Part shown: piece after piece, positions 38,878 through 49,729 of the stretch
Layout of the letters: every line of letters starts with the position of its first letter
Numbering within the stretch: position 1 is the first letter of the stretch
NCBI GenBank assembly: GCA_035468285.1
Contig: DATISY010000009.1
Coordinates: forward strand, 1,134 to 65,133
From: Acidimicrobiia bacterium
GTDB taxonomy: Bacteria; Actinomycetota; Acidimicrobiia; IMCC26256; PALSA-555
Reading direction: 5' to 3'
DNA length: 64,000 nt
Position numbers and translations under genes: made by a program
The notes under the pieces: model-generated
Seen by the model: the letters and a program-made list of their open reading frames with translations, nothing else
Told to the model about the DNA's origin: nothing
Databases searched by the model: none

Positions 38878-39591
38878 ATGCCCGCCACCGTCGTCCTCGT
38901 CCACGGCGCGTGTCACGGCGCGTGGTGCTGGGACAAAGTCGTGGCGGGGCTGACCGAACGGGGCATCCCGTGCGTCGCGGTGGACCTCCCGGGCCACGGG
39001 GACAGCCGGGAGCCGCTCGGGGATCTCGCCGCGGGAGCCGCGGCGCTGCGCGCCACCCTGGACGGGATCGACCGGTCGGTCGTGTGCGGACACTCCTATG
39101 GCGGCGCGGTCATCACCGAAGGCGCCGCCGAGCACCCCGGGGTCCGCCACCTCGTCTACATCACCGCGTTCGCGCTCCTCCCGGGGGAGTCGACGATGGC
39201 TGCCGCCACCGACGGGTCAGACTCGGACACCGCCACCGAGCTCGGGCAGGCGATGGCCTTCGCGGACGATGGGACCGTGACCTTCCAGGCGCCGGCCGTC
39301 GTCGACGCGCTCTACCACGACTGCACCCCGGCCGATGTCGAGTTCGCCCTGTCCCGGCTCGGCCCAGAGCGCCTCGACGCGCTCGGTGGTGTCGCCACGC
39401 GCGCCGCCTGGCAGTCGATCCCGAGCACGTACGTCGTCTGCACCGAAGACCGCGGCGTGGCACCGTCGCTGCAGCGCCGACTCGCGGCCCGCACGACGAC
39501 GACCGTCGACTGGCCCACCAGTCATTCGCCGTTCCTGTCCCGCCCCGATCTCGTGGTGGACCTGCTCGCCGGCCTCGCGGAAGGGACGTAG
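38878..39591 (+). CDS. Alpha/beta hydrolase (methylesterase-like)
   Basis: 'VVLVHGACHGAWCWDKV' and nucleophile elbow 'VCGHSYGG'. C-terminal 'SHSPFLSRPD' His motif. Confidence 0.8.
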   Translation: MPATVVLVHGACHGAWCWDKVVAGLTERGIPCVAVDLPGHGDSREPLGDLAAGAAALRATLDGIDRSVVCGHSYGGAVITEGAAEHPGVRHLVYITAFALLPGESTMAAATDGSDSDTATELGQAMAFADDGTVTFQAPAVVDALYHDCTPADVEFALSRLGPERLDALGGVATRAAWQSIPSTYVVCTEDRGVAPSLQRRLAARTTTTVDWPTSHSPFLSRPDLVVDLLAGLAEGT

Positions 39592-39600
39592 GATCGCCCG

Positions 39601-39993
39601 ATGAGCACGCTCGACGACTACGTCATCAAGGCCCAGGCCGCGTTGGACGGGCTGCGCCCCCAGCTCGATGAGCTCCGGGTCCAGGCCGACCTGGCGCAGG
39701 CTGAGGCCCGCGACCGGCTCGAAGCCGGGATCGCCGCGCTGCAGAAGGCGCAAGCCGCGGCGAAGGCGCAGCTCGAGCAGGCGTCCCGTGCCGGGAAGGA
39801 CACCTGGAAGACGACGGCGCAGCAAGCGGAGCAGGCCGTCGACGACCTCGGCACCCAGCTGCAGCAGATCGCGGAGCAGGTCCAGAAGTCGGTCGGCGCG
39901 GCGGCGCCCGCGGCGCAGAAGGGGTGGCGGACCTTCCTCGACGAGTGGAACCGCCAACGCCAGGAGCGTCAGCGCCTCATCGACGAGGGTTGA
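39601..39993 (+). CDS. Coiled-coil / apolipoprotein-like helical hypothetical protein
   Basis: 130 aa rich in A/Q/E/L heptad-like repeats ('LDELRVQADLAQAEARDRLEAGIAALQKAQAAAKAQLEQA'). Good third-position GC. No family recognised. Confidence 0.55.
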   Translation: MSTLDDYVIKAQAALDGLRPQLDELRVQADLAQAEARDRLEAGIAALQKAQAAAKAQLEQASRAGKDTWKTTAQQAEQAVDDLGTQLQQIAEQVQKSVGAAAPAAQKGWRTFLDEWNRQRQERQRLIDEG

Positions 39994-40748
39994 CGTCCTC
40001 GTACGAGCGACGCAACCGGGCGTTCTGGGACGCCGACGCGGACGACTACCAAGCGGCCCACGCCGCTGATCTCGCCCCGCACCGGGCCCCGGCGTGGGGA
40101 GTGTGGCGCGTCCCCGAGTCGGAGGTGCGCGCGCTCGGCCCGGTCGCTGACCATGATGTCCTCGAGTACGGGTGCGGCGCCGCGCAGTGGTCGATCGCGT
40201 TGGCCCACGACGGCGCGCGCCCCGTCGGGCTCGACCAGTCCGTCGCGCAGCTGCGCCATGCGCGCCGGCTCCAAGACGAGCACGGAACGCCGTTTCCGCT
40301 CGTCGCGGCGAGCGCGGTCGCGACACCGTTCACCAGCGAGGCGTTCGACCTGGTGTTCTGCGACCACGGCGCGATGTCGTTCTGTGACCCGCAGGCCACG
40401 ATCCCGGAGGTGGCGCGCCTCGTGCGCCCCGGGGGCCGATTCGTGTTCAGCAAGACGACGGCGCTCGTATACCTGACGTTCGACTGGGCGCGGGACCGTC
40501 AGGACGACCGGCTTCACCACGACTACTTCGGGATGCGCCTGTTCGACAGCGGTGAGGGCACCGTCGACTTCCAGCTCCCGTACGGCGATATGGTCCGGAT
40601 CCTCCGCCGGCACGGGTTCACGCTCGAGGATCTCGTGGAACTGCAGGCACCGGTCGATGCCGCGACGACCTACCACGAGTTCGTGCCCGCGGACTGGGCG
40701 CGTCGGTGGGCTGCGGAGGAGATCTGGGTGCTGACCCGCGCCGGGTGA
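39990..40748 (+). CDS. Class I SAM-dependent methyltransferase
   Basis: Motif I 'VLEYGCGAAQWS', 'GLDQS', post-I/II 'FDLVFCDHGA', 'LVRPGGRFVF'. TTG 39990 overlapping the upstream TGA is tentative (alternative ATG 39924). Confidence 0.8.
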   Translation: MTSSYERRNRAFWDADADDYQAAHAADLAPHRAPAWGVWRVPESEVRALGPVADHDVLEYGCGAAQWSIALAHDGARPVGLDQSVAQLRHARRLQDEHGTPFPLVAASAVATPFTSEAFDLVFCDHGAMSFCDPQATIPEVARLVRPGGRFVFSKTTALVYLTFDWARDRQDDRLHHDYFGMRLFDSGEGTVDFQLPYGDMVRILRRHGFTLEDLVELQAPVDAATTYHEFVPADWARRWAAEEIWVLTRAG

Positions 40749-40751
40749 CGG

Positions 40752-41558
40752 CTACGGGTAGCGGAGCGGGACGGCGGCCTCGGGGCTGTGCGCGTGGAAG
40801 GTGAGGCTCTCCTCGAAGTACAGCCACACCGCGTCGGCATCGGAACGTTCGTACCCGATCGAGAGGTCTTGACCGCACGACAGCTCGAAGTCCTCGCCCC
40901 GCAAGCTGAGGACGATGGCCCCGTCGACGGCGGGCGCGTAGGTGACGGGGCCACCCAGGATCAGGCGGAGCCGTTCGAGCACGGGGTAGCCGCCGTCCTC
41001 GGTGGTCTCGAGGATGCCGGCGTAGCAGCGCGGCCCGAGCGCGATCCCGTAGGGGCCTTCGACGCCGCCGTCGCGCAGCCGGGCGACGGCCATGGCGGTC
41101 CAGCGCGGGTAGTCGCCGAAGCGGTCGCCCAGCTCCACCGGCTCATGGGGTGAGGCGTCGGCGATCCCGATGATCCCCGCGCTCGGGTATCCGCGGAACA
41201 CCGCGCTGTCCTCGGCGAGGGCGGCGCGCCTTGCGGCGTCGGTCACGGGCTGGAGGTCGGGTGACTTGTGGCCCCGGTCGATGGTGTCGAGCTCGGCGCG
41301 CTGGAGCGAGAAGCGGGCCCGGAGCTCCACGTAGGGCTGGACGAGGCGGCGGGCGCCTTCGACGCCGGCCACCGGTGCGTCGCTGAGCGTCTCGATGGTC
41401 CCGAGGGGCACCGCAGCGGCGTCCCAGCCGTGGGGACCGGTGAAGTCGACCAGCCGCCGGGCGGCGAGGAAGCTGGCGAGGGAGCGTTTGGCTTCGTCCT
41501 CGATCTCGGCCCACGCCGCGTCCGAGATCGGCGCCAGCTCCCGGTAGAGGTGGTTCAT
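40752..41558 (-). CDS. Family 1 encapsulin shell protein (linocin M18 / HK97-fold nanocompartment)
   Basis: 268 aa. N-terminus 'MNHLYRELAPISDAAWAEIEDEAKRSL' is the hallmark encapsulin start. Length and 'YPVLERL...GGPVTYAPAVDGAIVLSLRGEDFEL' fit. ATGA overlap with the cargo gene. Confidence 0.9.
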   Translation of the reverse strand: MNHLYRELAPISDAAWAEIEDEAKRSLASFLAARRLVDFTGPHGWDAAAVPLGTIETLSDAPVAGVEGARRLVQPYVELRARFSLQRAELDTIDRGHKSPDLQPVTDAARRAALAEDSAVFRGYPSAGIIGIADASPHEPVELGDRFGDYPRWTAMAVARLRDGGVEGPYGIALGPRCYAGILETTEDGGYPVLERLRLILGGPVTYAPAVDGAIVLSLRGEDFELSCGQDLSIGYERSDADAVWLYFEESLTFHAHSPEAAVPLRYP

Positions 41559-41917
41559 GAGTCTTCCCGGGTGGAGCCCACGTCGAGCGAGCCGGAGCCG
41601 GTTCCGCCGGCGCTGTCGCCCGCTTCGTGCTCCTCTTCGACGATCGACGTCTCCGTGAAGAGGTAGGTGCGGAGATGCCGGTCGAGGACGGGGTCGTGAC
41701 GGCGGAGCCATTCGAGGCCCATCGCCGCGTGCTCCTTCTCCTCGTCGCGGTTGTGAGCGAGGATCTCGGCGAGGGTCGGGTCGTCGGTGGCCTGCACCCG
41801 TTGGTCGTACCAGTCGACGGCTTGGAGCTCCTCGATGACCGACTGGATGGCCCGGTGTCGATCGATCGTCGCCGCGTCGAGCAGTGCGGCATCCTCGTGT
41901 AGGCCTTCGCTCGCCAT
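41555..41917 (-). CDS. Encapsulated ferritin (EncFtn) cargo protein with C-terminal targeting peptide
   Basis: 'DRHRAIQSVIEELQAVDWYDQRV...ILAHNRDEEKEHAAMGLEWLRRHD...LRTYLFTE' is near-identical in pattern to characterised EncFtn. Gly/Ser linker then 'GSLDVGSTREDS' targeting-peptide-like tail. GAGGAGG RBS. Confidence 0.9.
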   Translation of the reverse strand: MASEGLHEDAALLDAATIDRHRAIQSVIEELQAVDWYDQRVQATDDPTLAEILAHNRDEEKEHAAMGLEWLRRHDPVLDRHLRTYLFTETSIVEEEHEAGDSAGGTGSGSLDVGSTREDS

Positions 41918-41948
41918 CGTCGCCTCCTCGGTTCTCCCGGCAGGCTAG

Positions 41949-43565
41949 TCAGCGCCGCTCGAAGGTGAGCCCGGCCGCCTCCCGGTCCCAGGTCGCGGCG
42001 GTGACCCCGTCTGCTCGCAGCTGGTACTTGAGGACCCGGCCGACGGGGTTGCGGGGCAGGTCGGAGCGGAACTCGACGTAGCGGGGCACCGCGAAGTACG
42101 GGACGTGGTCGACCGCCCATCGACACAGCGCTTCCTCGGTGATCGACCCCTCCTCGACGAGGACCACGGTCACCTTCACGTCGTCTTCCCCGACGTCGCT
42201 CGGCACCGAGTGCACGGCGACGTCCTGGATCGCCTCGTGATCATGGAAGATTCGCTCCAGCTCGAAGCTGGAGATGTTCTCGCCCCGCCGACGCAGGTAA
42301 TCCTTCTTCCTGTCGACGAAGTAGAGGAAGTCGTCGTCGTCGAGCCGGCCGAGGTCGCCGGTGTGGAACCAGAGGTTGCGAAACACCGCGAGGGTCTCCT
42401 CGGCGCGACCCCAGTAGCCCGCGAACATGACGTTCGGGAACCGGGGGCGACACACGATCTCACCGGTGGTGCCGGTCGGGACCTGACGGTCGTCGTCGTC
42501 GACGAGGGCGACCTCGAACTCGTGGCGGTTCGGCTTCCCCGCGGCGCCGGCCCGGTTCGTCTCCCCCGCGGGCAGCATCGAGATCAGCGACGCCTCGGTC
42601 AGCCCGTAGCCGCCGCTGAACGTGGCGCACCCGAACCGTTCCCGCCAGATGCGGTCGGTGTCGGGCGGGATGGGCGCGGCGGCGCAGAGCCGGAGGTGGT
42701 GCCCGGCCTGGTCGGGGTGGTCGGACGCGTCGGCGAGGAGGATGGCCAGCGACCCGAGCAGCGACACCATCGTGGCCTTGGTGCGCTTGACCTCGGGCCA
42801 GAACTGCGAGACCGAGAACCGGCGGGCGATGCTCGCCGTGCCGCCGTTCACGAGGGTCCCGACGACACAGATCGAGATCGCGTTGAAGTGGAACAGCGGC
42901 AGCGGGGTGAGGACGATGTCGTCGGGTCGGCGTTGCCAGGCCCGGGCGATCTGGTCGGCGAGACACACGATGTAGTTGTGCGCCAGCATGCAGCCCTTCG
43001 ACGGGCCCGTGGTCCCCGCGGTGTAGATGAAGCAGGCCAGGTCCGCCGGTCCCACCTCCGCGGGTGGCGGAGGCGCGTCGGGGGCCTCCTCCAGCAGCGT
43101 CGCCCACGGGTGGAGGGGCACGTCCCGGATCGGGGTGTCAGGCTCGCCGGTCACGACGACGGCGCGTAGCTCGGGCAGCGTGGGGTTCGTGACGCCCGCG
43201 ACGCGAGACGCGAAGTCCCCCTGGACGACCACCACCCGGGCCCCGGAGTCGCTGAGCTGATGGCGGAGGAACTCACCCTTGTACGCGGTGTTGACCGGGA
43301 CCTGGATCGCACCGAGCTTCAGCGCGGCGAAGAAGGACACCACTTGCTCCGGCCCGTTCTCGAGGAGTGTCGCCACCCGGTCGCCCCGCTCGACCCCAAG
43401 TCGCGCCAGGCCGTGCGCGAGGCGGTTGCTCACTGCATCGATGTCACGGGCAGACAGCACGGTCCCGGCGAAGTCGAGGTAGGGCCCGTCCGGGTCGCGT
43501 GCGAGGCGGTACGCGAGCGCGTCGAGAACAGTCGTGCCGGCAGCGAGGTCCACGGAGGCTGACAC
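41949..43565 (-). CDS. AMP-dependent acyl-CoA synthetase
   Basis: GTG 43565 (VSASVDLAAG). 'IYTAGTTGPSKG', 'GYGLTE', 'FHTGDLG'. A10 region reads 'LPRNPVGRVLKYQL' (Arg in place of the usual Lys). Confidence 0.85.
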   Translation of the reverse strand: MSASVDLAAGTTVLDALAYRLARDPDGPYLDFAGTVLSARDIDAVSNRLAHGLARLGVERGDRVATLLENGPEQVVSFFAALKLGAIQVPVNTAYKGEFLRHQLSDSGARVVVVQGDFASRVAGVTNPTLPELRAVVVTGEPDTPIRDVPLHPWATLLEEAPDAPPPPAEVGPADLACFIYTAGTTGPSKGCMLAHNYIVCLADQIARAWQRRPDDIVLTPLPLFHFNAISICVVGTLVNGGTASIARRFSVSQFWPEVKRTKATMVSLLGSLAILLADASDHPDQAGHHLRLCAAAPIPPDTDRIWRERFGCATFSGGYGLTEASLISMLPAGETNRAGAAGKPNRHEFEVALVDDDDRQVPTGTTGEIVCRPRFPNVMFAGYWGRAEETLAVFRNLWFHTGDLGRLDDDDFLYFVDRKKDYLRRRGENISSFELERIFHDHEAIQDVAVHSVPSDVGEDDVKVTVVLVEEGSITEEALCRWAVDHVPYFAVPRYVEFRSDLPRNPVGRVLKYQLRADGVTAATWDREAAGLTFERR

Positions 43566-43602
43566 TACTGTCAGGTTTCGTGCGCGCTGCTCCGCGGTCG
43601 GC

Positions 43603-44049
43603 TCAGCCGCCGGACGACGGCCCGGACTCGTGTGCCGTGACCGTGAACGCGACCGTCTGCCCGTAGGACAGCTCGAGGTTGTGCCCGTCCGGGTCCGCGA
43701 TGATCGCCCAGTACCCAACGGGTGGCCCGTCGTCGAGCGGGCCGAAGACCTCGTGACCCGCAGCGCGGGCCGCGGTGACGCGGGCGTCGACCTCGTCCCT
43801 GCTGGCGCAGCCGACGCCGAGGTGCGCGAACCCGCCGAGGTGGTGGCTCACCGCGGTCTCGATGAGCACCACGACGAATGGGCGCGTCAGATCACTGAGC
43901 CAGACGACGACGACACCGGTCTGGTCGTCGGTGCGCCGGTGGACGACCTGCATCTCGGCGAAACGCTCGTAGAAGGCGACGCTGCGCGCCGCGTCGGCGA
44001 TGGGCAGCGCGACATGGGTAAGGCCGAGATCGCGGCGGGATCCTGTCAC
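43603..44049 (-). CDS. VOC (glyoxalase/dioxygenase) family protein
   Basis: GTG 44049. 'LTHVALPIADAARSVAFYERFAEM...GFAHLGVGC...DPDGHNLELS'. Confidence 0.75.
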   Translation of the reverse strand: MTGSRRDLGLTHVALPIADAARSVAFYERFAEMQVVHRRTDDQTGVVVVWLSDLTRPFVVVLIETAVSHHLGGFAHLGVGCASRDEVDARVTAARAAGHEVFGPLDDGPPVGYWAIIADPDGHNLELSYGQTVAFTVTAHESGPSSGG

Positions 44050-44087
44050 GATGGGAGCGTACCGACACGAGGGCGACGGGAGAGCCG

Positions 44088-44555
44088 ATGAGCGGGAGCG
44101 TGCACCGCTACGTGACGACGTGCGTGTGGTCGGGGTCGACCGCGGCCGGATATGACCAGTACGACCGGGCGCACGTCGGGAGCGCCCCTCCGGCGCTACC
44201 GGCCATGGATCTCTCGGCAGACTCGGCGTTTCGCGGCGACGCGCGCCGCTGGAACCCGGAGGCGCTCCTGGTGCTGGCGGCGTCGTCGTGCCAGCTGCTC
44301 TCGTTCCTGGCGGTGGCGGCACGGGCACGCGTCGACGTGGTCGACTACCAGGACGACGCCGAAGGCGAGATGCCAGAGACGGTGACGCCGATGCGGATCA
44401 CCCGGATCGTGCTGCGACCCCGGATCACGGTCCGCGGGGACGTGGACACGGCACGCCTGGTGCATCTCGTCGGCGTCGCGCACCGGGAGTGCTTCATCGC
44501 GAACACCCTCCGGTCGCCCATCGTCGTCGAGCCGACGTTCGTCACGACGCCCTGA
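44088..44555 (+). CDS. OsmC-family peroxiredoxin-like protein
   Basis: 'WNPEALLVLAASSCQLLSFL' and 'AHRECFIANTL' carry the two conserved OsmC/Ohr Cys. Confidence 0.8.
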   Translation: MSGSVHRYVTTCVWSGSTAAGYDQYDRAHVGSAPPALPAMDLSADSAFRGDARRWNPEALLVLAASSCQLLSFLAVAARARVDVVDYQDDAEGEMPETVTPMRITRIVLRPRITVRGDVDTARLVHLVGVAHRECFIANTLRSPIVVEPTFVTTP

Positions 44556-44568
44556 CGGCGCGATCGAG

Positions 44569-46080
44569 CTAGGGCAGCACCCCGGGAACCCGGAGGGGCC
44601 GCACCGGGAGTTGGCGTCGAACCGACGTCAGACGCAGGGCGTCGAGCAGCGCGTCGCGCAGTTCGCTCGGCGCGACGATCTCGTCGTAGCTCATGGTGTC
44701 CGCCGCGGAGTACGCGCCCCCGAGCTCGGCGTGTTCGAGCACGGCGCGAGTGTCGTTGTCGACCCCGGCCGCGTCCGCGCTCCCGGCCGCGGGCATGGCA
44801 CCGAGCCGGGCCCCGGGGAGCGCGAGGGAGACGGTCTGGTCGTCGAAGGGGTTCATGGCCATCAGGGAGCTCCCGAACCCGTAGGCCTTGCGGAGCGTCA
44901 CGTGCAGCTTCGGCGCGGTGATCCGGGCCTGCGCGGCGAACATGCGGGCGGCGTGACGGAGGATCCCGGACCGCTCGGAGGTGCTCCCCGCGAGCACCCC
45001 GGGGTTGTCGGCGAGGAAGACGACCGGGAGGTGGAAGGCCGCCGCCACGCCGAGGAAGTGCGCGGCCTTGTCCGCGCCGTCGACGTCGATCGACCCCGCC
45101 TTCACCGCGGGCTGGTTCGCGACGATCGCGACTGGCGCGCCGCCCAGCCGGGCGAGGCTCGTGACGATGGTCCGACCGTACGCGGGCTCGATCTCGAGGC
45201 CGGAGCCGTGGTCGACGAGCGCGTCGATGACCTGGCGGATCTCGTACGCACGGCGGGGGTCGGCCGGGATCAGGTCGACGAGCTCGGGTACCGGCCGGGC
45301 ACCGTCGGTTGGGGCAACCGCCGGCGGGTGGGTCCATGCGTTCGACGGGAAGTAGGAGAGGTAGCGGCGGACGAGGTCGAGGGCGTCGGCGTCGGTGGGG
45401 GCCGCGTTGTGGGCCACGCCGCTGACGGTTGTGTGCACCGCGGTGCCGCCCAGCGCATCTTTGGTGACCTCTTCGCCGACGGAGGTGCGGACGAGTGGCG
45501 GCCCGGCGGAGAACAGCGCCGCCCCTTCGACCATGACCACGAGATCCATCAGTGGCGCGGTGAGGGCGCCGTGACCGGCGGAGGAGCCCAGCACGACGCA
45601 CACCATGGGGACCAGGCCGCTCAACCGGGCGAGGCTCTGCAGGTCGTTCGGGGACCGGCCCCGCCGCTCGAAGGCGTTCTGGGTGCGCTCCCCCGCTCCC
45701 TCGAGCAGCATGACGAGCGGCACCCGTTCGCGGCGGGCCAGATCGGCGAGTCGTTGTCGTTTGGCGCCGGTCCCGTGGCCGATCGAGCCACCCATGACGG
45801 TGAAGTCCTCGGCGCCGGCGAGGACCGGGCGGCCGTCGACGAGGCCGTGCCCCGCGACGAGCCCGTCCGCGGGGGCGGGCGGGGTCACGCCGCGGTGGAC
45901 CGCACCCACGAGGGTGCCGAGCTCGACGAACGTCCCCGGATCGAAGAGTCGGGCGATGCGGGCGCGCGCGTCGAGACGGCCCGGGGTGCGGTGGCGCGCC
46001 AGGCGCTCCTCGCCGCCCATCGCCCGGGCGGCGTCCTGGCGGGCCGCGAAGTCGTCGAGGAGGGGCTGCCAGTCGTTCAC
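44569..46080 (-). CDS. Acyl-CoA carboxylase carboxyltransferase (beta) subunit
   Basis: GTG 46080 overlapping the upstream stop (GTGA). 'AEDFTVMGGSIGHGTGAK', 'GSSAGHGAL', second domain 'PVVFLADNPGVL...RKAYGFG'. Confidence 0.9.
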   Translation of the reverse strand: MNDWQPLLDDFAARQDAARAMGGEERLARHRTPGRLDARARIARLFDPGTFVELGTLVGAVHRGVTPPAPADGLVAGHGLVDGRPVLAGAEDFTVMGGSIGHGTGAKRQRLADLARRERVPLVMLLEGAGERTQNAFERRGRSPNDLQSLARLSGLVPMVCVVLGSSAGHGALTAPLMDLVVMVEGAALFSAGPPLVRTSVGEEVTKDALGGTAVHTTVSGVAHNAAPTDADALDLVRRYLSYFPSNAWTHPPAVAPTDGARPVPELVDLIPADPRRAYEIRQVIDALVDHGSGLEIEPAYGRTIVTSLARLGGAPVAIVANQPAVKAGSIDVDGADKAAHFLGVAAAFHLPVVFLADNPGVLAGSTSERSGILRHAARMFAAQARITAPKLHVTLRKAYGFGSSLMAMNPFDDQTVSLALPGARLGAMPAAGSADAAGVDNDTRAVLEHAELGGAYSAADTMSYDEIVAPSELRDALLDALRLTSVRRQLPVRPLRVPGVLP

Positions 46081-46994
46081 GCGGACACGACCGCGTCGGC
46101 GTGCTGGTCGGGGGTCCCGAAGACAGTGTCGAGCACCCAGGCCCGCTTCAGGTACAGGTGGACGTCCACGTCCCAGGTGAAGCCCATCCCCCCGTGGACC
46201 TGCAGCGACCCTTTCGCGTTCAGGCGCGCCGCGTCCCCAGCCATGACCTTGGCGCTGCTCACCGCACGGGCGGGGTCGCCGACCGTGGGGTCCTCGACGG
46301 TGCATGCCGCGGCGTCGACCGCGGCGCGGGCCACCTCGGCGCGCACGGCCATGTCGGCCAGAAGGTGCTTCACCGCTTGGAAGGAACCGATGGGTCGGGC
46401 GAACTGGTGCCGTTCCAGCGCGTACGCGCCGGCGCGGTCGACGCAGGCTTGCGCCATCCCGACCTGATACGCCGCGGTGAGCAGCGCGCCGCTCTGCCGC
46501 CACGCTGCGGCGAGGTCCGCGTCACCAATCCGGGGGCCGTCGGGGACCACCGTGGCGCGGCTCACGGGGGTGAGCGGGTCGAGTGGCCAGTCGAGCGGGG
46601 TGAGCGGCTCGAGCACCTCGCGGGCGACGACGATGATCCCGTCGTCGTCGAGCACGGCCAGGTGGTCGATCACGTCGGGGTGCTCGACGAGGATCGGGCC
46701 GTCCCCCGCCGGCCGTTCGAGCCCACCCACGATGCCGTCGACTTGACCGTGCGCAAGGTGGGACCAGGTGAGGGGGCCGGGGACGAGCGCCCGGCCGAGC
46801 TCCTGGAAGGCGATCGCGACGTCGGGCCAACCGAACCCGTCGGCCCGCAGGGAGAACAGGCCGGCGTCGGCGAGCTCGGCGAAGAGGCTGCGGTCGAAGC
46901 CCTTTCGGATCCGGGGCAGGTCGAACCGGCCTTCGCAGAGCCGGCGGACGCCGTCGCGCAGGGCGACCTGGTCGTCGGAGAGGTCGAAGTTCAC
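46077..46994 (-). CDS. Acyl-CoA dehydrogenase, short 'TWEHD'-type subunit of a probable alpha/beta pair
   Basis: 305 aa. 'MNFDLSDDQVALRDGVRRLCE', 'FARPIGSFQAVKHLLADM', 'VHGGMGFTWDVDVHLYLKR'. Lies 46 nt downstream of the partner gene. Confidence 0.8.
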   Translation of the reverse strand: MNFDLSDDQVALRDGVRRLCEGRFDLPRIRKGFDRSLFAELADAGLFSLRADGFGWPDVAIAFQELGRALVPGPLTWSHLAHGQVDGIVGGLERPAGDGPILVEHPDVIDHLAVLDDDGIIVVAREVLEPLTPLDWPLDPLTPVSRATVVPDGPRIGDADLAAAWRQSGALLTAAYQVGMAQACVDRAGAYALERHQFARPIGSFQAVKHLLADMAVRAEVARAAVDAAACTVEDPTVGDPARAVSSAKVMAGDAARLNAKGSLQVHGGMGFTWDVDVHLYLKRAWVLDTVFGTPDQHADAVVSA

Positions 46995-47040
46995 CGTGCG
47001 GCCGTCGAGCGGGTCGTCCGGGTCGGCTGCGGCGGGTCCT

Positions 47041-48180
47041 TTACGTCCACGCCTTCTCCTTGGGGAGCCCGAGCAGCCGCTCGCCGATGATGTTGCGCTG
47101 GATCTGGGAGGTGCCCGCCGCGATGGGGATGGAGAGGGTGCGGAGCCGTTCTTCGACGCGGTAATCGTGGACGTCGAACGCGCCGCGCCCGAGGACGCGC
47201 ATCGTGAGCTCGCCCAGCCGGTCGCGAGCTTCGCTGTACGCGAGCTTGAACATGAGCGCGCCTGGGCCCGGGGTGCCGTGCCCGGCCTGGGTGACGTTGC
47301 GTTGCGTCAGCGCCCACAGCGCGTCGAGCGCGGCGAGGACGTGGCCGAGCTCGCGTCGTTCGGCCGGGTCGACCACGATCGGTCGGAGCTCGTCGGCCAG
47401 GCGGCGGGCGTCGACCATCTCGCTCACGAAGGCGGTGCCCCGCTCGAAGGACAGCGTGACGTTCGTGACGCGCCAGCCGTCGTTCTCGACCCCGACGCGG
47501 TTCGCGACCGGGACGCGCACCTCGTCGAGGAACACCTCACAGAACTCCGATGACCCGAGGAGGGTCTCGATGGGCCGAACGTCGATCCCGGGGAGGTCCA
47601 TCGGGAGGATCAGCCAGGAGATGCCCCGGTGCTTCGTCGCGTCGGGGTCGGTGCGGACCAGCAGCTCCCCGAACTCGCCGACCTGGCCGAACGAGCACCA
47701 GATCTTCTGGCCGGTCACCACGTAGTGGTCGCCGTCGCGTACGGCACGGGTGCGGAGCCCGGCGAGGTCGGAGCCGGCCTCGGGCTCGGAGAAGCACTGG
47801 CACCAGACCTCGTCGCCGCGCAGGATCCGGGGGAGGTGCTCGGCCTTCTGGGTCTCGCTGCCCTCGGCGATCAAGGTCGGCCCGGCGTGGAGGTTCCCGA
47901 CGAAGTTGACGCCCACGTAGGGCGCCTGGGCGCGGGTCGTTTCCTCCAAGAAGATCAGCTGCTCCGTCGGGGACGCGTCTCGCCCCCCGAAGGCCCGAGG
48001 CCAGCTCATCCCGGCGTACCCGGCGTCGAAGAGGCGGCGTTGCCAGTCGGTGTCGTAGCGGACGCGGGCTGGCCAGTCGTCCCGGGTGGGTGGGGACGGG
48101 AGTCGCGGCAGCTCGGCGCGCAGCCAGGCGTGCAGCTCGGCGCGGAACGCCTCGTCGGCCTCCGAGAGTCGCAGGTCCAT
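47041..48180 (-). CDS. Acyl-CoA dehydrogenase, 'IQRNI'-type subunit
   Basis: 'WCQCFSEPEAGSDLAGL', 'VTGQKIWCS'. C-terminus 'AAGTSQIQRNIIGERLLGLPKE'. Confidence 0.9.
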   Translation of the reverse strand: MDLRLSEADEAFRAELHAWLRAELPRLPSPPTRDDWPARVRYDTDWQRRLFDAGYAGMSWPRAFGGRDASPTEQLIFLEETTRAQAPYVGVNFVGNLHAGPTLIAEGSETQKAEHLPRILRGDEVWCQCFSEPEAGSDLAGLRTRAVRDGDHYVVTGQKIWCSFGQVGEFGELLVRTDPDATKHRGISWLILPMDLPGIDVRPIETLLGSSEFCEVFLDEVRVPVANRVGVENDGWRVTNVTLSFERGTAFVSEMVDARRLADELRPIVVDPAERRELGHVLAALDALWALTQRNVTQAGHGTPGPGALMFKLAYSEARDRLGELTMRVLGRGAFDVHDYRVEERLRTLSIPIAAGTSQIQRNIIGERLLGLPKEKAWT

Positions 48181-48250
48181 CGGCGCGGGAGCGTACGCCC
48201 GGTCCTGACGGAGCGTCAGATCGGCCCGACGGGCCCGGGTGCGCGGTCGC

Positions 48251-49729
48251 TTAGCAGTGCGTCCCGGGTGTCGGCGGGTGGAGGGCGATGAGGTACCGGT
48301 TGATCACGGTGTCGACGCAGGTGTTGCCGGACGCGTACGCGGTGTGCTGGGCGCTGTTGACCGTGACCAGCACTGCGGACTGGAGCTCGTGGGACAGACC
48401 CGTCGCCCAGGCCAGCGGTGTGGCCGGGTCGTCGGTGTTGCCGACCACGACGATGGGCGGTGCCCCGACGGCGTGCGGCACCGGCGGGGTCTGCGTGGGG
48501 ATGGGCCAGAGGGCGCACGCGAGGCTGTTGTTGATCACCGAGCGGCCGACCCGGGGCGCGACCTGAGCCGCTTGCTCCTCGATGGCGCGCAGGCCAGCCA
48601 CGCCACCCACGTCGGGGCCGTCCAGACACCCGATGGCGAGGAACGCGTCCTGGGACGCGTCGTACGTCCCGTTGGGTTGGCGCCCCGTGTAGGCGTCGGA
48701 CTGCTTCAGCAGCTCGGTGCCGTCCCCGGCCGCGGCCGCGGCGAGGGCGTGCCCGAGGTCGGGCCATGCCTGGCGGCCGGAGTAGAGGAGCTGGGTGACC
48801 CCGATGTCGAACTCGGTCCCGTTCAACGTTCGGCCCTTGCCGGCACCGTCCGCAGGGATCGGGGTGGCTCCGACGCGCGCCCTGAGCGCGTCGTACGCCG
48901 CGGGGGTGGTGCCGTTCTGACGGAACGAGCACGTGGTGTCCGTCGCGCAGGACTGCAGGAACTGGTCGAGGTCGTGCTCGAAACCCACGGCTTGTTGCAC
49001 CTGCTGCGCCGACGCGCTCAGTGCGGGGTCGACGGCACCGTCGAGCACCATCGCGCGGATGTGCGTCGGGAACCGGTCGGCGTACAAGGACCCGAGATAG
49101 GTGCCGTACGAGAAGCCGAGGTACGTGAGGCGCGCTTCGCCGAGCGCGGCCCGGACTCGATCCATGTCGCGGGCAGCGCGCTCCGTCGAGAGATAGGGCA
49201 GCTCGGCGCCGGCCTTCGCCTGGCACTGGGCGACGAAGGCTCGCACACCGGCGAGGAGCTCCTGGCGCGCGGCGTCGTCGCGGGGGGCGAACTCGAGGTT
49301 GTAGAGCGGATCGAGGTTCGGGGTGCACTCGACCGCGGCGCTCCCGCCCGTCCCGCGGGGGTCGAACGTCACGAGATCGAACCGGTCGCGGATGCTCCCC
49401 GGGAGGGTGGACGAGAAGTCCCGCAGGAACGGGATGCCGGGGGCGCCGGGGCCGCCGGGGTTCATGACGAGGGAGCCGATGCGCTGCTGAGGGTTCCGGG
49501 CCGGCACCCGTCCGAGGGCCAGGGTGATCGTCGGGCCGCCGGTCGTGGTGTCGTCGAGGGGGACCTTGAGGTGCGAGCACTGGACGCCACCGCCGCACGC
49601 GTTCCAGCGCAAGGTGGAATGGGGGGCAGACGACGTGGCCGACGCGGGCGACGCGACGGTCGGGGCGACACTGACGAGGAGCGCGACGGCGATCAGGGCG
49701 GCGACCGCGCGCCGGGGAGGGAAGGGCAC
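48251..49729 (-). CDS. Secreted alpha/beta-hydrolase, S33 tripeptidyl-aminopeptidase-like
   Basis: Signal peptide 'AVAALIAVALLVSVAPTVASPASA'. 'NPGGPGAPG' oxyanion region. Nucleophile 'YLGFSYGTYLG'. C-terminal conserved Cys pairs. Confidence 0.8.
   Translation of the reverse strand: MPFPPRRAVAALIAVALLVSVAPTVASPASATSSAPHSTLRWNACGGGVQCSHLKVPLDDTTTGGPTITLALGRVPARNPQQRIGSLVMNPGGPGAPGIPFLRDFSSTLPGSIRDRFDLVTFDPRGTGGSAAVECTPNLDPLYNLEFAPRDDAARQELLAGVRAFVAQCQAKAGAELPYLSTERAARDMDRVRAALGEARLTYLGFSYGTYLGSLYADRFPTHIRAMVLDGAVDPALSASAQQVQQAVGFEHDLDQFLQSCATDTTCSFRQNGTTPAAYDALRARVGATPIPADGAGKGRTLNGTEFDIGVTQLLYSGRQAWPDLGHALAAAAAGDGTELLKQSDAYTGRQPNGTYDASQDAFLAIGCLDGPDVGGVAGLRAIEEQAAQVAPRVGRSVINNSLACALWPIPTQTPPVPHAVGAPPIVVVGNTDDPATPLAWATGLSHELQSAVLVTVNSAQHTAYASGNTCVDTVINRYLIALHPPTPGTHC

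What the first reader, a model, noticed from the sequence alone, without database searches (positions are those of the whole stretch)
40752..41917. Family-1 encapsulin nanocompartment operon (EncFtn cargo + shell) inside a lipid-catabolic region
Seen: a 120-aa protein carries the EncFtn pattern (DRHRAI..EELQAVDWYDQRV..AHNRDEEKEHAAM..LRTYLFTE). It ends in a Gly/Ser linker plus a GSLDVGS tail. Its TGA overlaps (ATGA, 41555-41558) the ATG of a 268-aa protein that starts MNHLYRELAPISDAAWAEIEDEAKR, the hallmark encapsulin N-terminus. Established: EncFtn decamers are ferroxidases that are only useful when packaged in an encapsulin shell, normally T=1, via a C-terminal peptide. Inference: this is a complete iron-oxidising/iron-storing protein organelle. 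It sits only 31 nt downstream of an acyl-CoA ligase gene and close to OsmC and VOC genes, not in an iron-homeostasis locus. That suggests it buffers iron/peroxide stress generated by the many oxygenase and flavin/F420 enzymes encoded around it. The component families are known, but this genomic coupling is not something I recognise as described.
Basis: partly seen in the sequence, partly recalled or inferred. Interest (0 to 1): 0.75.

Follow-up and report, generated by a model that had tools for sequence, protein, structure and literature searches.

The report
Ordinary EncFtn encapsulin two-gene cassette
This is a genuine but ordinary iron-oxidising protein nanocompartment (encapsulated ferritin plus shell) in an uncultured Acidimicrobiia-like actinobacterium, and its position next to fatty-acyl-CoA genes comes from one lineage-specific insertion, not from a conserved functional link.

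Summary
A 120-aa EncFtn gene (41555-41917, minus strand) overlaps by ATGA a 268-aa Family 1 encapsulin shell gene (40752-41558), 31 nt downstream of an acyl-CoA ligase gene. Both proteins pass curated family thresholds. The ferroxidase residues are intact, the predicted shell fold matches solved T=1 encapsulins (TM 0.92-0.95), and both genes are under purifying selection.

The proposed coupling to lipid catabolism is not supported.
- The ligase adjacency occurs only in one monophyletic sub-clade of Acidimicrobiia-like genomes.
- 59 of 62 metagenomic ligase orthologue loci lack the cassette. Twelve of these have the methyltransferase gene directly after the ligase.
- One very close relative (L065, ligase 88% identical) has deleted the cassette cleanly and kept the whole neighbourhood.
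- Sister clades carry the same two genes elsewhere, in one clade next to a DtxR/IdeR-type iron repressor.
- A -10-like TANNNT hexamer about 30 nt upstream of EncFtn suggests the cassette has its own promoter.

Two minor lineage-specific oddities remain. The targeting peptide is GSLDVGSTR, with Thr where Leu is almost universal. The "entry-site" glutamate (R. rubrum Glu34) is Gln.

Verdict: a new member of a known kind, of low interest.

The parts
41555..41917 (-). EncFtn (encapsulated ferritin) cargo gene, 120 aa including the stop codon. The ferroxidase-centre residues are E30, E60 and H63 (R. rubrum E32/E62/H65), with Y37 and W36 also present. The entry-site position is Q32 where R. rubrum has Glu34.
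   Evidence: Pfam PF22277 1.7e-38. TIGR04535 140.3 bits against a cutoff of 125. PDB R. rubrum EncFtn 1.3e-35. Residue mapping from the alignments.
41594..41629 (-). Acidic, Gly/Ser-rich flexible linker of EncFtn (about residues 97-108, HEAGDSAGGTGS).
   Evidence: Read directly from the sequence. The linker varies in length and sequence among relatives. The literature describes disordered C-terminal regions of 10-40 aa in these proteins (PMC11202242).
41567..41593 (-). C-terminal targeting peptide GSLDVGSTR (residues 109-117). It is a variant of the consensus GSLGIGSL(K/R): Gly becomes Asp at the second variable position and Leu becomes Thr at the third hydrophobic position.
   Evidence: Consensus and mutagenesis data come from PMC10960027, PMC8791618 and PMC8346489.
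40752..41558 (-). Family 1 (classical) encapsulin shell gene, 268 aa, whose start codon overlaps the EncFtn stop (ATGA). The targeting-peptide-binding residues R34 and D38 are present.
   Evidence: PF04454 1.3e-78. NF041155 284.3 bits. PDB 9ry4 3e-79. AF2 mean pLDDT 94.3. Foldseek TM 0.92-0.95 to T=1 encapsulins.
41918..41948 (-). 31-nt leader between the ligase stop and the EncFtn ATG. It holds a -10-like hexamer TAGCCT (41947-41942, 30 nt before the ATG) and the Shine-Dalgarno sequence GAGGAGG (41929-41923).
   Evidence: Sequence. A TANNNT hexamer lies at -29 to -39 in all 11 loci of the clade, and at -50 to -21 in 16 of 27 EncFtn loci, against 0.017 expected per locus. No consensus sigma-70 promoter or terminator was found.
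41949..43571 (-). Context only: upstream AMP-forming acyl-CoA ligase gene, forming the left border of the insertion site. The start codon is uncertain (the longest ORF starts at 43718).
   Evidence: PF00501 and PF13193. It falls below every NCBIfam equivalog cutoff. Orthologues mostly lack the cassette.
39924..40748 (+). Context only: convergent SAM-dependent methyltransferase gene, forming the right border of the insertion site. Its stop lies 3 nt from the shell stop.
   Evidence: Methyltransf_11/25. In 12 metagenomic loci it lies within 100 nt of the ligase stop with no cassette between them.

Best explanation
The locus is a classical Family 1 encapsulin system. By homology, EncFtn forms decamers of two-helix subunits with di-iron ferroxidase centres at the dimer interfaces. 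Its C-terminal peptide (GSLDVGSTR) tethers it to the luminal P-domain pocket of the shell protein while 60 shell subunits assemble into a T=1 HK97-fold cage of about 24 nm. Fe(II) enters through the shell pores, is oxidised by EncFtn and is deposited as ferric mineral inside the shell, which gives both iron storage and protection from Fenton chemistry. The two genes form a translationally coupled (ATGA), self-contained cassette that probably has its own promoter. In one sub-lineage of Acidimicrobiia-like actinobacteria the cassette was inserted into the short spacer between a conserved acyl-CoA ligase gene and a convergent methyltransferase gene. Its neighbourhood is therefore a historical accident of insertion and not a dedicated partnership with lipid catabolism. 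Shown here: gene identities, catalytic residues, fold, selection, and presence/absence across relatives. Inferred: assembly state, cargo loading, iron chemistry, promoter use.
For: Identity: curated HMM thresholds are passed by both proteins. The closest solved structures are the R. rubrum and H. ochraceum Enc:EncFtn complexes. The ferroxidase residues E30/E60/H63 plus Y37/W36 are invariant in all 27 aligned sequences (the window and 26 related loci). The AF2 shell model has pLDDT 94.3, with TM 0.92-0.95 to T=1 shells and 0.73-0.78 to T=3/T=4 protomers. R34 and D38 of the peptide pocket are conserved (PMC10960027). dN/dS is 0.09-0.35.

Cassette behaviour: the ATGA or a similarly tight junction is kept across all clades. 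The ligase context is found only in a monophyletic group: the window plus L001-L006, L008, L013 and L061. Seventeen other EncFtn-Enc loci have other neighbours, including a divergent DtxR/IdeR-family repressor in L015/L021/L012 and pirin or aldo-keto reductase in L007/L009/L010. Of 62 ligase-orthologue loci with at least 400 nt downstream, only 3 carry the cassette, all with ligase identity of about 79% or more. None of the 58 loci below 78% identity carries it, and 12 of the 62 have the methyltransferase directly after the ligase. L065 keeps the full context (ACAD 96%, ligase 88%), but its 52-nt spacer retains only the cassette leader and the first EncFtn codons, which indicates deletion.

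Own promoter: a -10-like TANNNT is present at -29 to -39 in all 11 clade members and is enriched across clades.
Against: No experiment exists for this organism. No terminator separates the ligase from EncFtn, so co-transcription with the ligase is possible. The targeting peptide carries Thr at a position where Leu-to-Ala abolished loading in the K. pneumoniae DyP system (PMC10960027), so loading efficiency is uncertain. The -10-like element is only a consensus match, and the background rate used was for whole loci, not for intergenic DNA. The direction of events (one insertion, then loss in L065) rests on parsimony without a species tree.
Confidence: 0.85

Rival explanations
1. The cassette is functionally integrated with the surrounding catabolic and stress genes (VOC-ligase-EncFtn-Enc on one strand, OsmC divergent, sll1863-like stress protein nearby). 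It is co-transcribed with them and buffers iron and peroxide stress produced by the flavin/F420/oxygenase enzymes of this region.
For: The genes share a strand, lie 31 nt apart and have no terminator between them. OsmC, VOC and an sll1863-family stress protein are nearby. The arrangement is retained in about 10 species-level genomes of the clade and in 3 metagenomic loci.
Against: All loci with the arrangement form one clade in the shell tree, so they represent a single event. L065 deleted the cassette and kept everything else. L004/L067 have a 209-aa ORF between the ligase and EncFtn. 59 of 62 ligase orthologue loci work without the cassette. The cassette works without the ligase in 17 loci, some next to DtxR/IdeR. 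A -10-like element is conserved in the leader. Acyl-CoA and oxidoreductase genes are so dense in this window that any insertion would land near some.
Confidence: 0.1
2. The cassette is decaying or functionally impaired in this lineage. The divergent targeting peptide (Leu to Thr, Gly to Asp) no longer loads EncFtn into the shell, so the shell is empty or the system is on its way to loss, as in L065.
For: Thr at the third hydrophobic position was seen in 0 of 27 diverse representative peptides and only in the window, L001 and L139. Leu345Ala alone abolished loading in K. pneumoniae (PMC10960027). The entry-site Glu is lost. A close relative deleted the cassette.
Against: Both ORFs are intact and keep the ATGA coupling. 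dN/dS is 0.09-0.13 against L001. The GSTRED tail is itself conserved in three independent sequences. The ferroxidase residues and pocket residues R34/D38 are intact. Ferritin-type cargo peptides have been described as relying on two hydrophobic residues, and the T. maritima peptide GGDLGIRK lacks the third (PMC10960027).
Confidence: 0.05

Closest known systems
Rhodospirillum rubrum Enc:EncFtn (Rru_A0973/Rru_A0974; PDB 5da5, 9ry4/9rzu series)
   Same: It is the best sequence match among solved structures for both the shell (3e-79, full length) and the cargo (1.3e-35). It shares the cargo-then-shell two-gene order, the ferroxidase residues E32/E62/H65, Y39 and W38, and a C-terminal linker plus targeting peptide.
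   Different: Here the entry-site Glu34 is Gln. The linker is shorter (120 aa against 140 aa). The targeting peptide ends in GSTR where the canonical motif has GSL(K/R). The host is an Acidimicrobiia-like actinobacterium, not an alphaproteobacterium.
Haliangium ochraceum Enc:EncFtn (PDB 7odw, 7oe2)
   Same: It is a T=1 shell with an EncFtn decamer cargo and the targeting peptide GSLGIGSLR bound in the P-domain pocket. Foldseek TM is 0.92 and the sequence E-values are 1e-66 and 6e-34 (PMC8791618).
   Different: The core motif GxLGIxxL becomes GxLDVxxT here.
EncFtn-Enc operons of other Acidimicrobiia/Microthrixaceae MAGs (L007, L009-L021)
   Same: They are orthologous two-gene cassettes with 72-78% shell identity and the same ATGA-type junction.
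   Different: They carry the canonical GSLGIGSL(K/R) peptide and Glu at the entry site. Their neighbourhoods differ and include a divergent DtxR/IdeR repressor, imelysin, GroEL and pirin.
Mycobacterial and enterobacterial DyP encapsulins (Cfp29; K. pneumoniae 8u50)
   Same: Same Family 1 shell fold (TM 0.94), the same peptide-pocket residues R34/D38 and the same GSLxIGSLK-type targeting logic (PMC10960027).
   Different: The cargo there is a DyP peroxidase, not a ferritin-like ferroxidase.

Membership tests
Family 1 (classical) encapsulin shell | Matches the Linocin_M18 / encap_f1 profile above the curated threshold over the full length | tested here: met
   PF04454 264.2 bits (cutoff 24.3), profile positions 1-253 of 253. 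NF041155 284.3 bits (cutoff 100), 1-261 of 261.
Family 1 (classical) encapsulin shell | HK97-type fold with a T=1-type protomer conformation | tested here: met
   AF2 pLDDT 94.3, pTM 0.88. Foldseek TM 0.92-0.95 and rmsd 1.5-2.3 A to T=1 encapsulins, against TM 0.73-0.78 and rmsd 7-8 A to T=3/T=4 protomers. This is a prediction, not an experiment.
Family 1 (classical) encapsulin shell | [quoted passage not shown] | tested here: met
   EncFtn lies immediately upstream with an ATGA overlap. R34 and D38 are present, with R34 invariant and D38 conserved in at least 90% of 52 homologues. The peptide is present but variant.
Family 1 (classical) encapsulin shell | Self-assembly into a 60-mer cage that encloses the cargo | not testable with these tools
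   Needs expression followed by TEM, cryo-EM or SEC. Here it is inferred only from homology.
EncFtn (encapsulated ferritin, FLP with targeting peptide) | Matches the EncFtn-like / ferrit_encaps profile above the curated threshold | tested here: met
   PF22277 130.7 bits (cutoff 27). TIGR04535 140.3 bits (cutoff 125).
EncFtn (encapsulated ferritin, FLP with targeting peptide) | Ferroxidase-centre residues Glu32, Glu62, His65 (ExxH) and Tyr39 (R. rubrum numbering) | tested here: met
   E30, E60, H63 and Y37 are present and invariant in all 27 aligned sequences (the window and 26 related loci).
EncFtn (encapsulated ferritin, FLP with targeting peptide) | Secondary 'entry / C site' ExxE with highly conserved Glu34 (or Asp) | tested here: not met
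   The window has E29 but Q32 at the Glu34 position. In genome loci of the ligase-linked clade this position is Ala (8) or Gln (2); metagenomic members add Ala (L067, L069), Ser (L066) and Glu (L139). All 17 other loci have Glu. Of 150 diverse representatives, 131 could be scored: 124 Glu, 3 Asp, 4 Gln. This site is not needed for catalysis: E34A raises activity in R. rubrum (bioRxiv 10.1101/785121; PMC11202242).
EncFtn (encapsulated ferritin, FLP with targeting peptide) | C-terminal targeting peptide matching GSLxIGSL(K/R) | tested here: inconclusive
   GSLDVGSTR keeps G, S, L, a branched hydrophobic residue (V), G, S and the basic residue, but has Thr for the last Leu. Among 27 representative peptides this position was 24 Leu, 3 Met and 0 Thr. 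Binding cannot be tested here.
Iron-regulon member (DtxR/IdeR-controlled locus) | Adjacent DtxR/IdeR gene or an IdeR-type operator upstream | tested here: not met
   No IdeR-box match in the window with up to 3 mismatches, or in the 300 nt upstream of EncFtn with up to 5. No DtxR gene was found among the neighbouring genes scanned with Pfam (about 29.7-55.5 kb), whereas L012/L015/L021 have one. The operator consensus used is mycobacterial and may not apply.
   There is one monophyletic clade only. 59 of 62 ligase loci lack the cassette, 17 EncFtn-Enc loci lack the ligase, and L065 deleted the cassette.

The most novel reading that the evidence does not exclude
The insertion next to OsmC, VOC, an sll1863-type stress protein and F420/flavin-dependent catabolic enzymes was selected, not accidental. 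On this reading the cassette is read through from the VOC-ligase transcript, and in this lineage it has been re-tuned: loss of the flow-restricting entry-site glutamate would give a faster ferroxidase, and a Thr-containing targeting peptide would give weaker or altered tethering. Together these would form a lineage-specific iron/peroxide buffer for a redox-heavy catabolic island.
Probability: 0.08. Interest if true: 0.45.

Novelty: new member of a known kind. Interest (0 to 1): 0.15.

Why it matters
As it stands, this adds one more uncharacterised EncFtn encapsulin from uncultured Acidimicrobiia-like bacteria, and automated annotation (NCBIfam/PGAP models) already names such proteins correctly. 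The useful outcome is negative: gene neighbourhood is not a reliable guide to function for this cassette, which moves between contexts and can be cleanly deleted. Two small natural variants could interest encapsulin engineers and EncFtn enzymologists. One is a targeting peptide with Thr at a position thought essential in another system. The other is a whole clade lacking the entry-site glutamate, whose mutation speeds up the R. rubrum enzyme.

Tried and rejected
1. IdeR/DtxR operator search. The window was searched with up to 3 mismatches and the 300 nt upstream of EncFtn in 27 loci with up to 5. Nothing was found.

2. Sigma-70 consensus promoter and intrinsic terminator scan of 39500-44600. 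Nothing was found. The less stringent actinobacterial -10 pattern TANNNT was then tested and was enriched.

3. Flanking direct or inverted repeats that could mark a mobile element or target-site duplication around the cassette. Only short chance-level matches turned up.

4. RNA structure at the ligase-EncFtn junction. The z-score was -0.97, which is not significant.

5. Compositional anomaly of the cassette. None: GC is 0.69-0.745 against 0.715 for the window.

6. Secondary cargo proteins with a targeting-peptide-like C-terminus elsewhere in the 64-kb window. None were found.

7. The idea that shell substitutions F5Y and A92T, unique to the window, L001 and P0001, compensate for the Leu-to-Thr change in the targeting peptide. 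Rejected, because L139 has the Thr peptide with F5 and A92.

8. The idea that loss of the entry-site Glu is strictly linked to the ligase context. Weakened, because L139 keeps Glu and L066 has Ser.

9. An apparent bacterial EncFtn-shell fusion (P0050, 404 aa). This is a frameshift artefact: its linker ARSASAAS is the +1 frame of the DNA encoding GSLGIGSL.

10. A literature search for 'encapsulin' together with 'Acidimicrobiia' returned no papers.
Full report
OBSERVATION.
- The minus strand carries a 120-aa ORF (41555-41917). Its TGA overlaps, within ATGA (41555-41558), the ATG of a 268-aa ORF that ends at 40752.
- The ORF list also contains a longer 319-aa reading from 41711. Alignments to solved encapsulins begin at residue 1 of the MNHLYREL version, so 41558 is the real start.
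- The upstream AMP-binding ligase gene stops at 41949-41951, 31 nt before the EncFtn ATG. The Shine-Dalgarno sequence GAGGAGG lies at 41929-41923.

IDENTITY.
Both proteins pass curated family thresholds.
- EncFtn: Pfam EncFtn-like 1.7e-38; NCBIfam TIGR04535 140.3 bits (cutoff 125).
- Shell: Linocin_M18 1.3e-78; NF041155 'family 1 encapsulin nanocompartment shell protein' 284.3 bits (cutoff 100).
- The best solved-structure relatives are a shell chain (9ry4, 3e-79, residues 1-266 aligned to 1-271) and an EncFtn chain whose aligned sequence is identical to R. rubrum Rru_A0973 (1.3e-35). H. ochraceum, mycobacterial, K. pneumoniae and T. maritima encapsulins follow.
- Mapping onto R. rubrum numbering gives ferroxidase-centre residues E30, E60 and H63 (E32/E62/H65) plus Y37 and W36. 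All are invariant in the 27 aligned sequences (the window and 26 related loci).
- An AlphaFold2 model of the shell, built from a 52-sequence alignment, has mean pLDDT 94.3. It matches T=1 encapsulin protomers at TM 0.92-0.95 (rmsd 1.5-2.3 A) and T=3/T=4 protomers only at TM 0.73-0.78. A 60-mer of about 24 nm is therefore the expected assembly, by inference.
- The targeting-peptide pocket residues Arg34 and Asp38, defined in K. pneumoniae (PMC10960027), are present.
- dN/dS against relatives is 0.09-0.24 for the shell and 0.13-0.35 for EncFtn, so both genes are under purifying selection.
- No other ORF in the window ends in a targeting-peptide-like motif.

CONTEXT IN THE WINDOW.
- On the cassette's strand, a VOC/glyoxalase gene and the acyl-CoA ligase lie upstream.
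- OsmC is divergent from the VOC gene.
- Further upstream lie a carboxyltransferase, a pair of acyl-CoA dehydrogenases (PimC/PimD- or IpdE-like), an alpha/beta hydrolase and an F420-dependent LLM oxidoreductase (TIGR03619, above cutoff).
- Downstream, a SAM methyltransferase gene is convergent with the shell gene, and their stop codons are 3 nt apart. Beyond it lie a 130-aa sll1863-family stress-response protein, an alpha/beta hydrolase and three amidohydrolases.
- The window is 71.5% GC, and the closest homologues are MAGs labelled Acidimicrobiia, Microthrixaceae or Actinomycetota.

IS THE COUPLING TO THE LIGASE MEANINGFUL?
I tested this from both sides.

(a) Starting from the shell.
- A scan of one genome per species returned 64 loci.
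- The arrangement ligase-EncFtn-Enc-methyltransferase, usually with the whole LLM...ACAD...OsmC-VOC block, is present in L001-L006, L008, L013 and L061.
- Together with the window these form a single monophyletic group in a shell-protein tree.
- The sister group (L007, L009, L010; 78% shell identity, as close as several syntenic members) and the other Acidimicrobiia-like groups (L011-L021) have the same two-gene cassette but none of these neighbours.
- In L015 and L021 the gene immediately upstream and divergent is a DtxR/IdeR-family iron-dependent repressor. L012 has the same repressor a few genes upstream, with imelysin, GroEL and a chlorite-dismutase-family gene nearby.
- The L007/L009/L010 group has pirin, aldo-keto reductase and amine oxidase genes.

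(b) Starting from the ligase.
- A metagenome scan returned 80 orthologue loci, of which 62 have at least 400 nt downstream of the ligase.
- Only 3 of the 62 carry the cassette (L139, L066, L067; ligase identity about 79-90%).
- None of 35 loci at 70-78% identity and none of 23 at 55-70% carries it.
- In 12 loci the methyltransferase stop lies within 100 nt of the ligase stop, an 'empty site'.
- L065 is the most telling case. It is the second-closest ligase orthologue (88%) and has ACAD 96%, sll1863-like 91%, hydrolase 86% and methyltransferase 80%, but no cassette. Its 52-nt ligase-methyltransferase spacer still aligns with the cassette leader (TCGGTACC-TGCAC...GACCGACCGGCGGAGGCG) and with the first EncFtn codons (GGCCAG). 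This means both genes were cleanly deleted in a lineage that kept everything else.
- In L004 and L067 a 209-aa membrane methyltransferase-like ORF sits between the ligase and EncFtn.

The simplest history is as follows. The ligase and a convergent methyltransferase formed the ancestral junction. The EncFtn-Enc cassette was inserted there once. It was later lost at least once and separated from the ligase by another insertion at least once. The catabolic locus functions without the cassette, and the cassette functions without the locus.

TRANSCRIPTION.
- No consensus sigma-70 promoter or intrinsic terminator lies in 39500-44600, so read-through from the ligase gene cannot be excluded.
- All 11 members of the clade have a TANNNT hexamer, the actinobacterial -10 pattern (established knowledge from mycobacterial TSS mapping), 29-39 nt before the EncFtn ATG. 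In the window it is TAGCCT at 41947-41942, directly after the ligase stop.
- Across all clades, 16 of 27 loci have such a hexamer at -50 to -21, where the whole-locus background predicts 0.017 per locus.
- This is a consensus match, and the background is not intergenic-specific. Its persistence in unrelated upstream contexts nevertheless argues that the cassette brings its own promoter.
- No IdeR-type operator was found. There is no junction RNA structure, no flanking repeat and no GC anomaly.

LINEAGE-SPECIFIC ODDITIES.

(1) Targeting peptide.
- Relatives carry the canonical GSLGIGSL(K/R). The window has GSLDVGSTRED, L001 has GSLDLGSTRED and L139 has GSLQLGSTRED.
- At the third hydrophobic position, 27 diverse representative peptides showed 24 Leu, 3 Met and no Thr.
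- In the K. pneumoniae DyP system, Ala substitution of that Leu alone abolished loading.
- Ferritin-type cargos have been described as relying on two hydrophobic residues, and the T. maritima peptide GGDLGIRK lacks the third (PMC10960027; PMC8791618).
- Conservation of the GSTRED tail in three sequences, together with low dN/dS, argues that it is functional.
- A tentative compensation by shell changes F5Y/A92T was rejected, because L139 has the Thr peptide with F5/A92.

(2) Entry site.
- The position equivalent to R. rubrum Glu34, described as highly conserved (PMC11202242), is Gln in the window and L001.
- It is Ala in the 8 other genome loci of the clade. Among metagenomic members it is Ala in L067 and L069, Ser in L066 and Glu in L139.
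- It is Glu in all 17 loci outside the clade. Of 150 representatives of 50%-identity clusters, 131 could be scored: 124 Glu, 3 Asp and 4 Gln.
- In R. rubrum, removing this site raises ferroxidase activity; the site was proposed to attract metal ions and restrict their flow (bioRxiv 10.1101/785121).
- This is a modest, testable natural variation and does not change the kind of system.

COMPARISON AND NOVELTY.
Flp/EncFtn cargos are the second-largest Family 1 cargo class. They are spread over 23 bacterial phyla with frequent horizontal transfer, and their proposed role is iron storage and oxidative-stress protection (PMC8346489). NCBI already labels close homologues from Acidimicrobiia MAGs as Family 1 shell proteins. 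No paper in the searched library combines 'encapsulin' and 'Acidimicrobiia', so this clade is uncharacterised but not new in kind.

VERDICT.
This is a real, intact, ordinary EncFtn encapsulin cassette and a new member of a known kind. The proposed coupling to lipid catabolism is best explained as a single lineage-specific insertion. Interest is low (0.15). The residual novel reading, a selected and re-tuned stress buffer for a catabolic island, has a probability of about 0.08.

Noticed in passing
L065:5687-5740 (metagenome contig Ga0066793_10002909): This very close relative (ligase 88%, ACAD 96% identical) has the entire neighbourhood but has precisely deleted EncFtn-Enc. Its 52-nt spacer retains the cassette's leader, the SD-like GGCGGAGGCG and the first EncFtn codons.
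   Followed up: yes
L015:8831-9568, L021:8656-9585, L012:5993-6766: In another Acidimicrobiia-like clade the same EncFtn-Enc cassette lies next to a DtxR/IdeR-family iron-dependent repressor, divergent and immediately upstream in L015 and L021. Imelysin, GroEL and a chlorite-dismutase-family gene are nearby. This is a classical iron-homeostasis context that is absent from the window.
   Followed up: partly
window 41822-41824 (EncFtn codon 32): The 'entry-site' glutamate (R. rubrum Glu34) is Gln here. In the genome loci of the ligase-linked clade it is Ala (8) or Gln (2), and metagenomic members add Ser (L066) and Glu (L139). It is Glu in all 17 loci outside the clade and Glu or Asp in 127 of 131 scorable diverse representatives.
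   Followed up: partly
window 41567-41593 (targeting peptide): GSLDVGSTR carries Thr where the third hydrophobic Leu is otherwise nearly universal. The GSTRED tail is shared only with L001 and L139.
   Followed up: partly
window 39601-39993 (+): This 130-aa coiled-coil-like protein has no Pfam hit but matches NCBIfam NF052504, 'sll1863 family stress response protein' (51.9 bits, cutoff 35). It overlaps the start of the longest methyltransferase ORF (39924) and is conserved with it in most ligase loci.
   Followed up: no
L004:8985-9614 and L067 (between the ligase and EncFtn): A 209-aa hydrophobic ORF resembling membrane (ICMT/PEMT-like) methyltransferases is inserted between the ligase and EncFtn in one branch. 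The resemblance was judged by eye and not confirmed by HMM. The ligase 3' junction therefore seems to be a recurrent insertion point.
   Followed up: no
P0050 (404-aa protein from an ENA metagenome, found): This is an apparent EncFtn-shell fusion in a bacterial relative. The linker ARSASAAS is the +1 reading frame of the DNA encoding GSLGIGSL, so it is most likely a frameshift or assembly artefact and not an archaeal-type fusion.
   Followed up: yes
window 46080-48303 (-) and 44569-46100 (-): Adjacent large and small acyl-CoA dehydrogenase subunits (PimC/PimD- or IpdE-like, all below equivalog cutoffs) lie next to a carboxyltransferase. The VOC gene is variably present between OsmC and the ligase across orthologous loci.
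   Followed up: no
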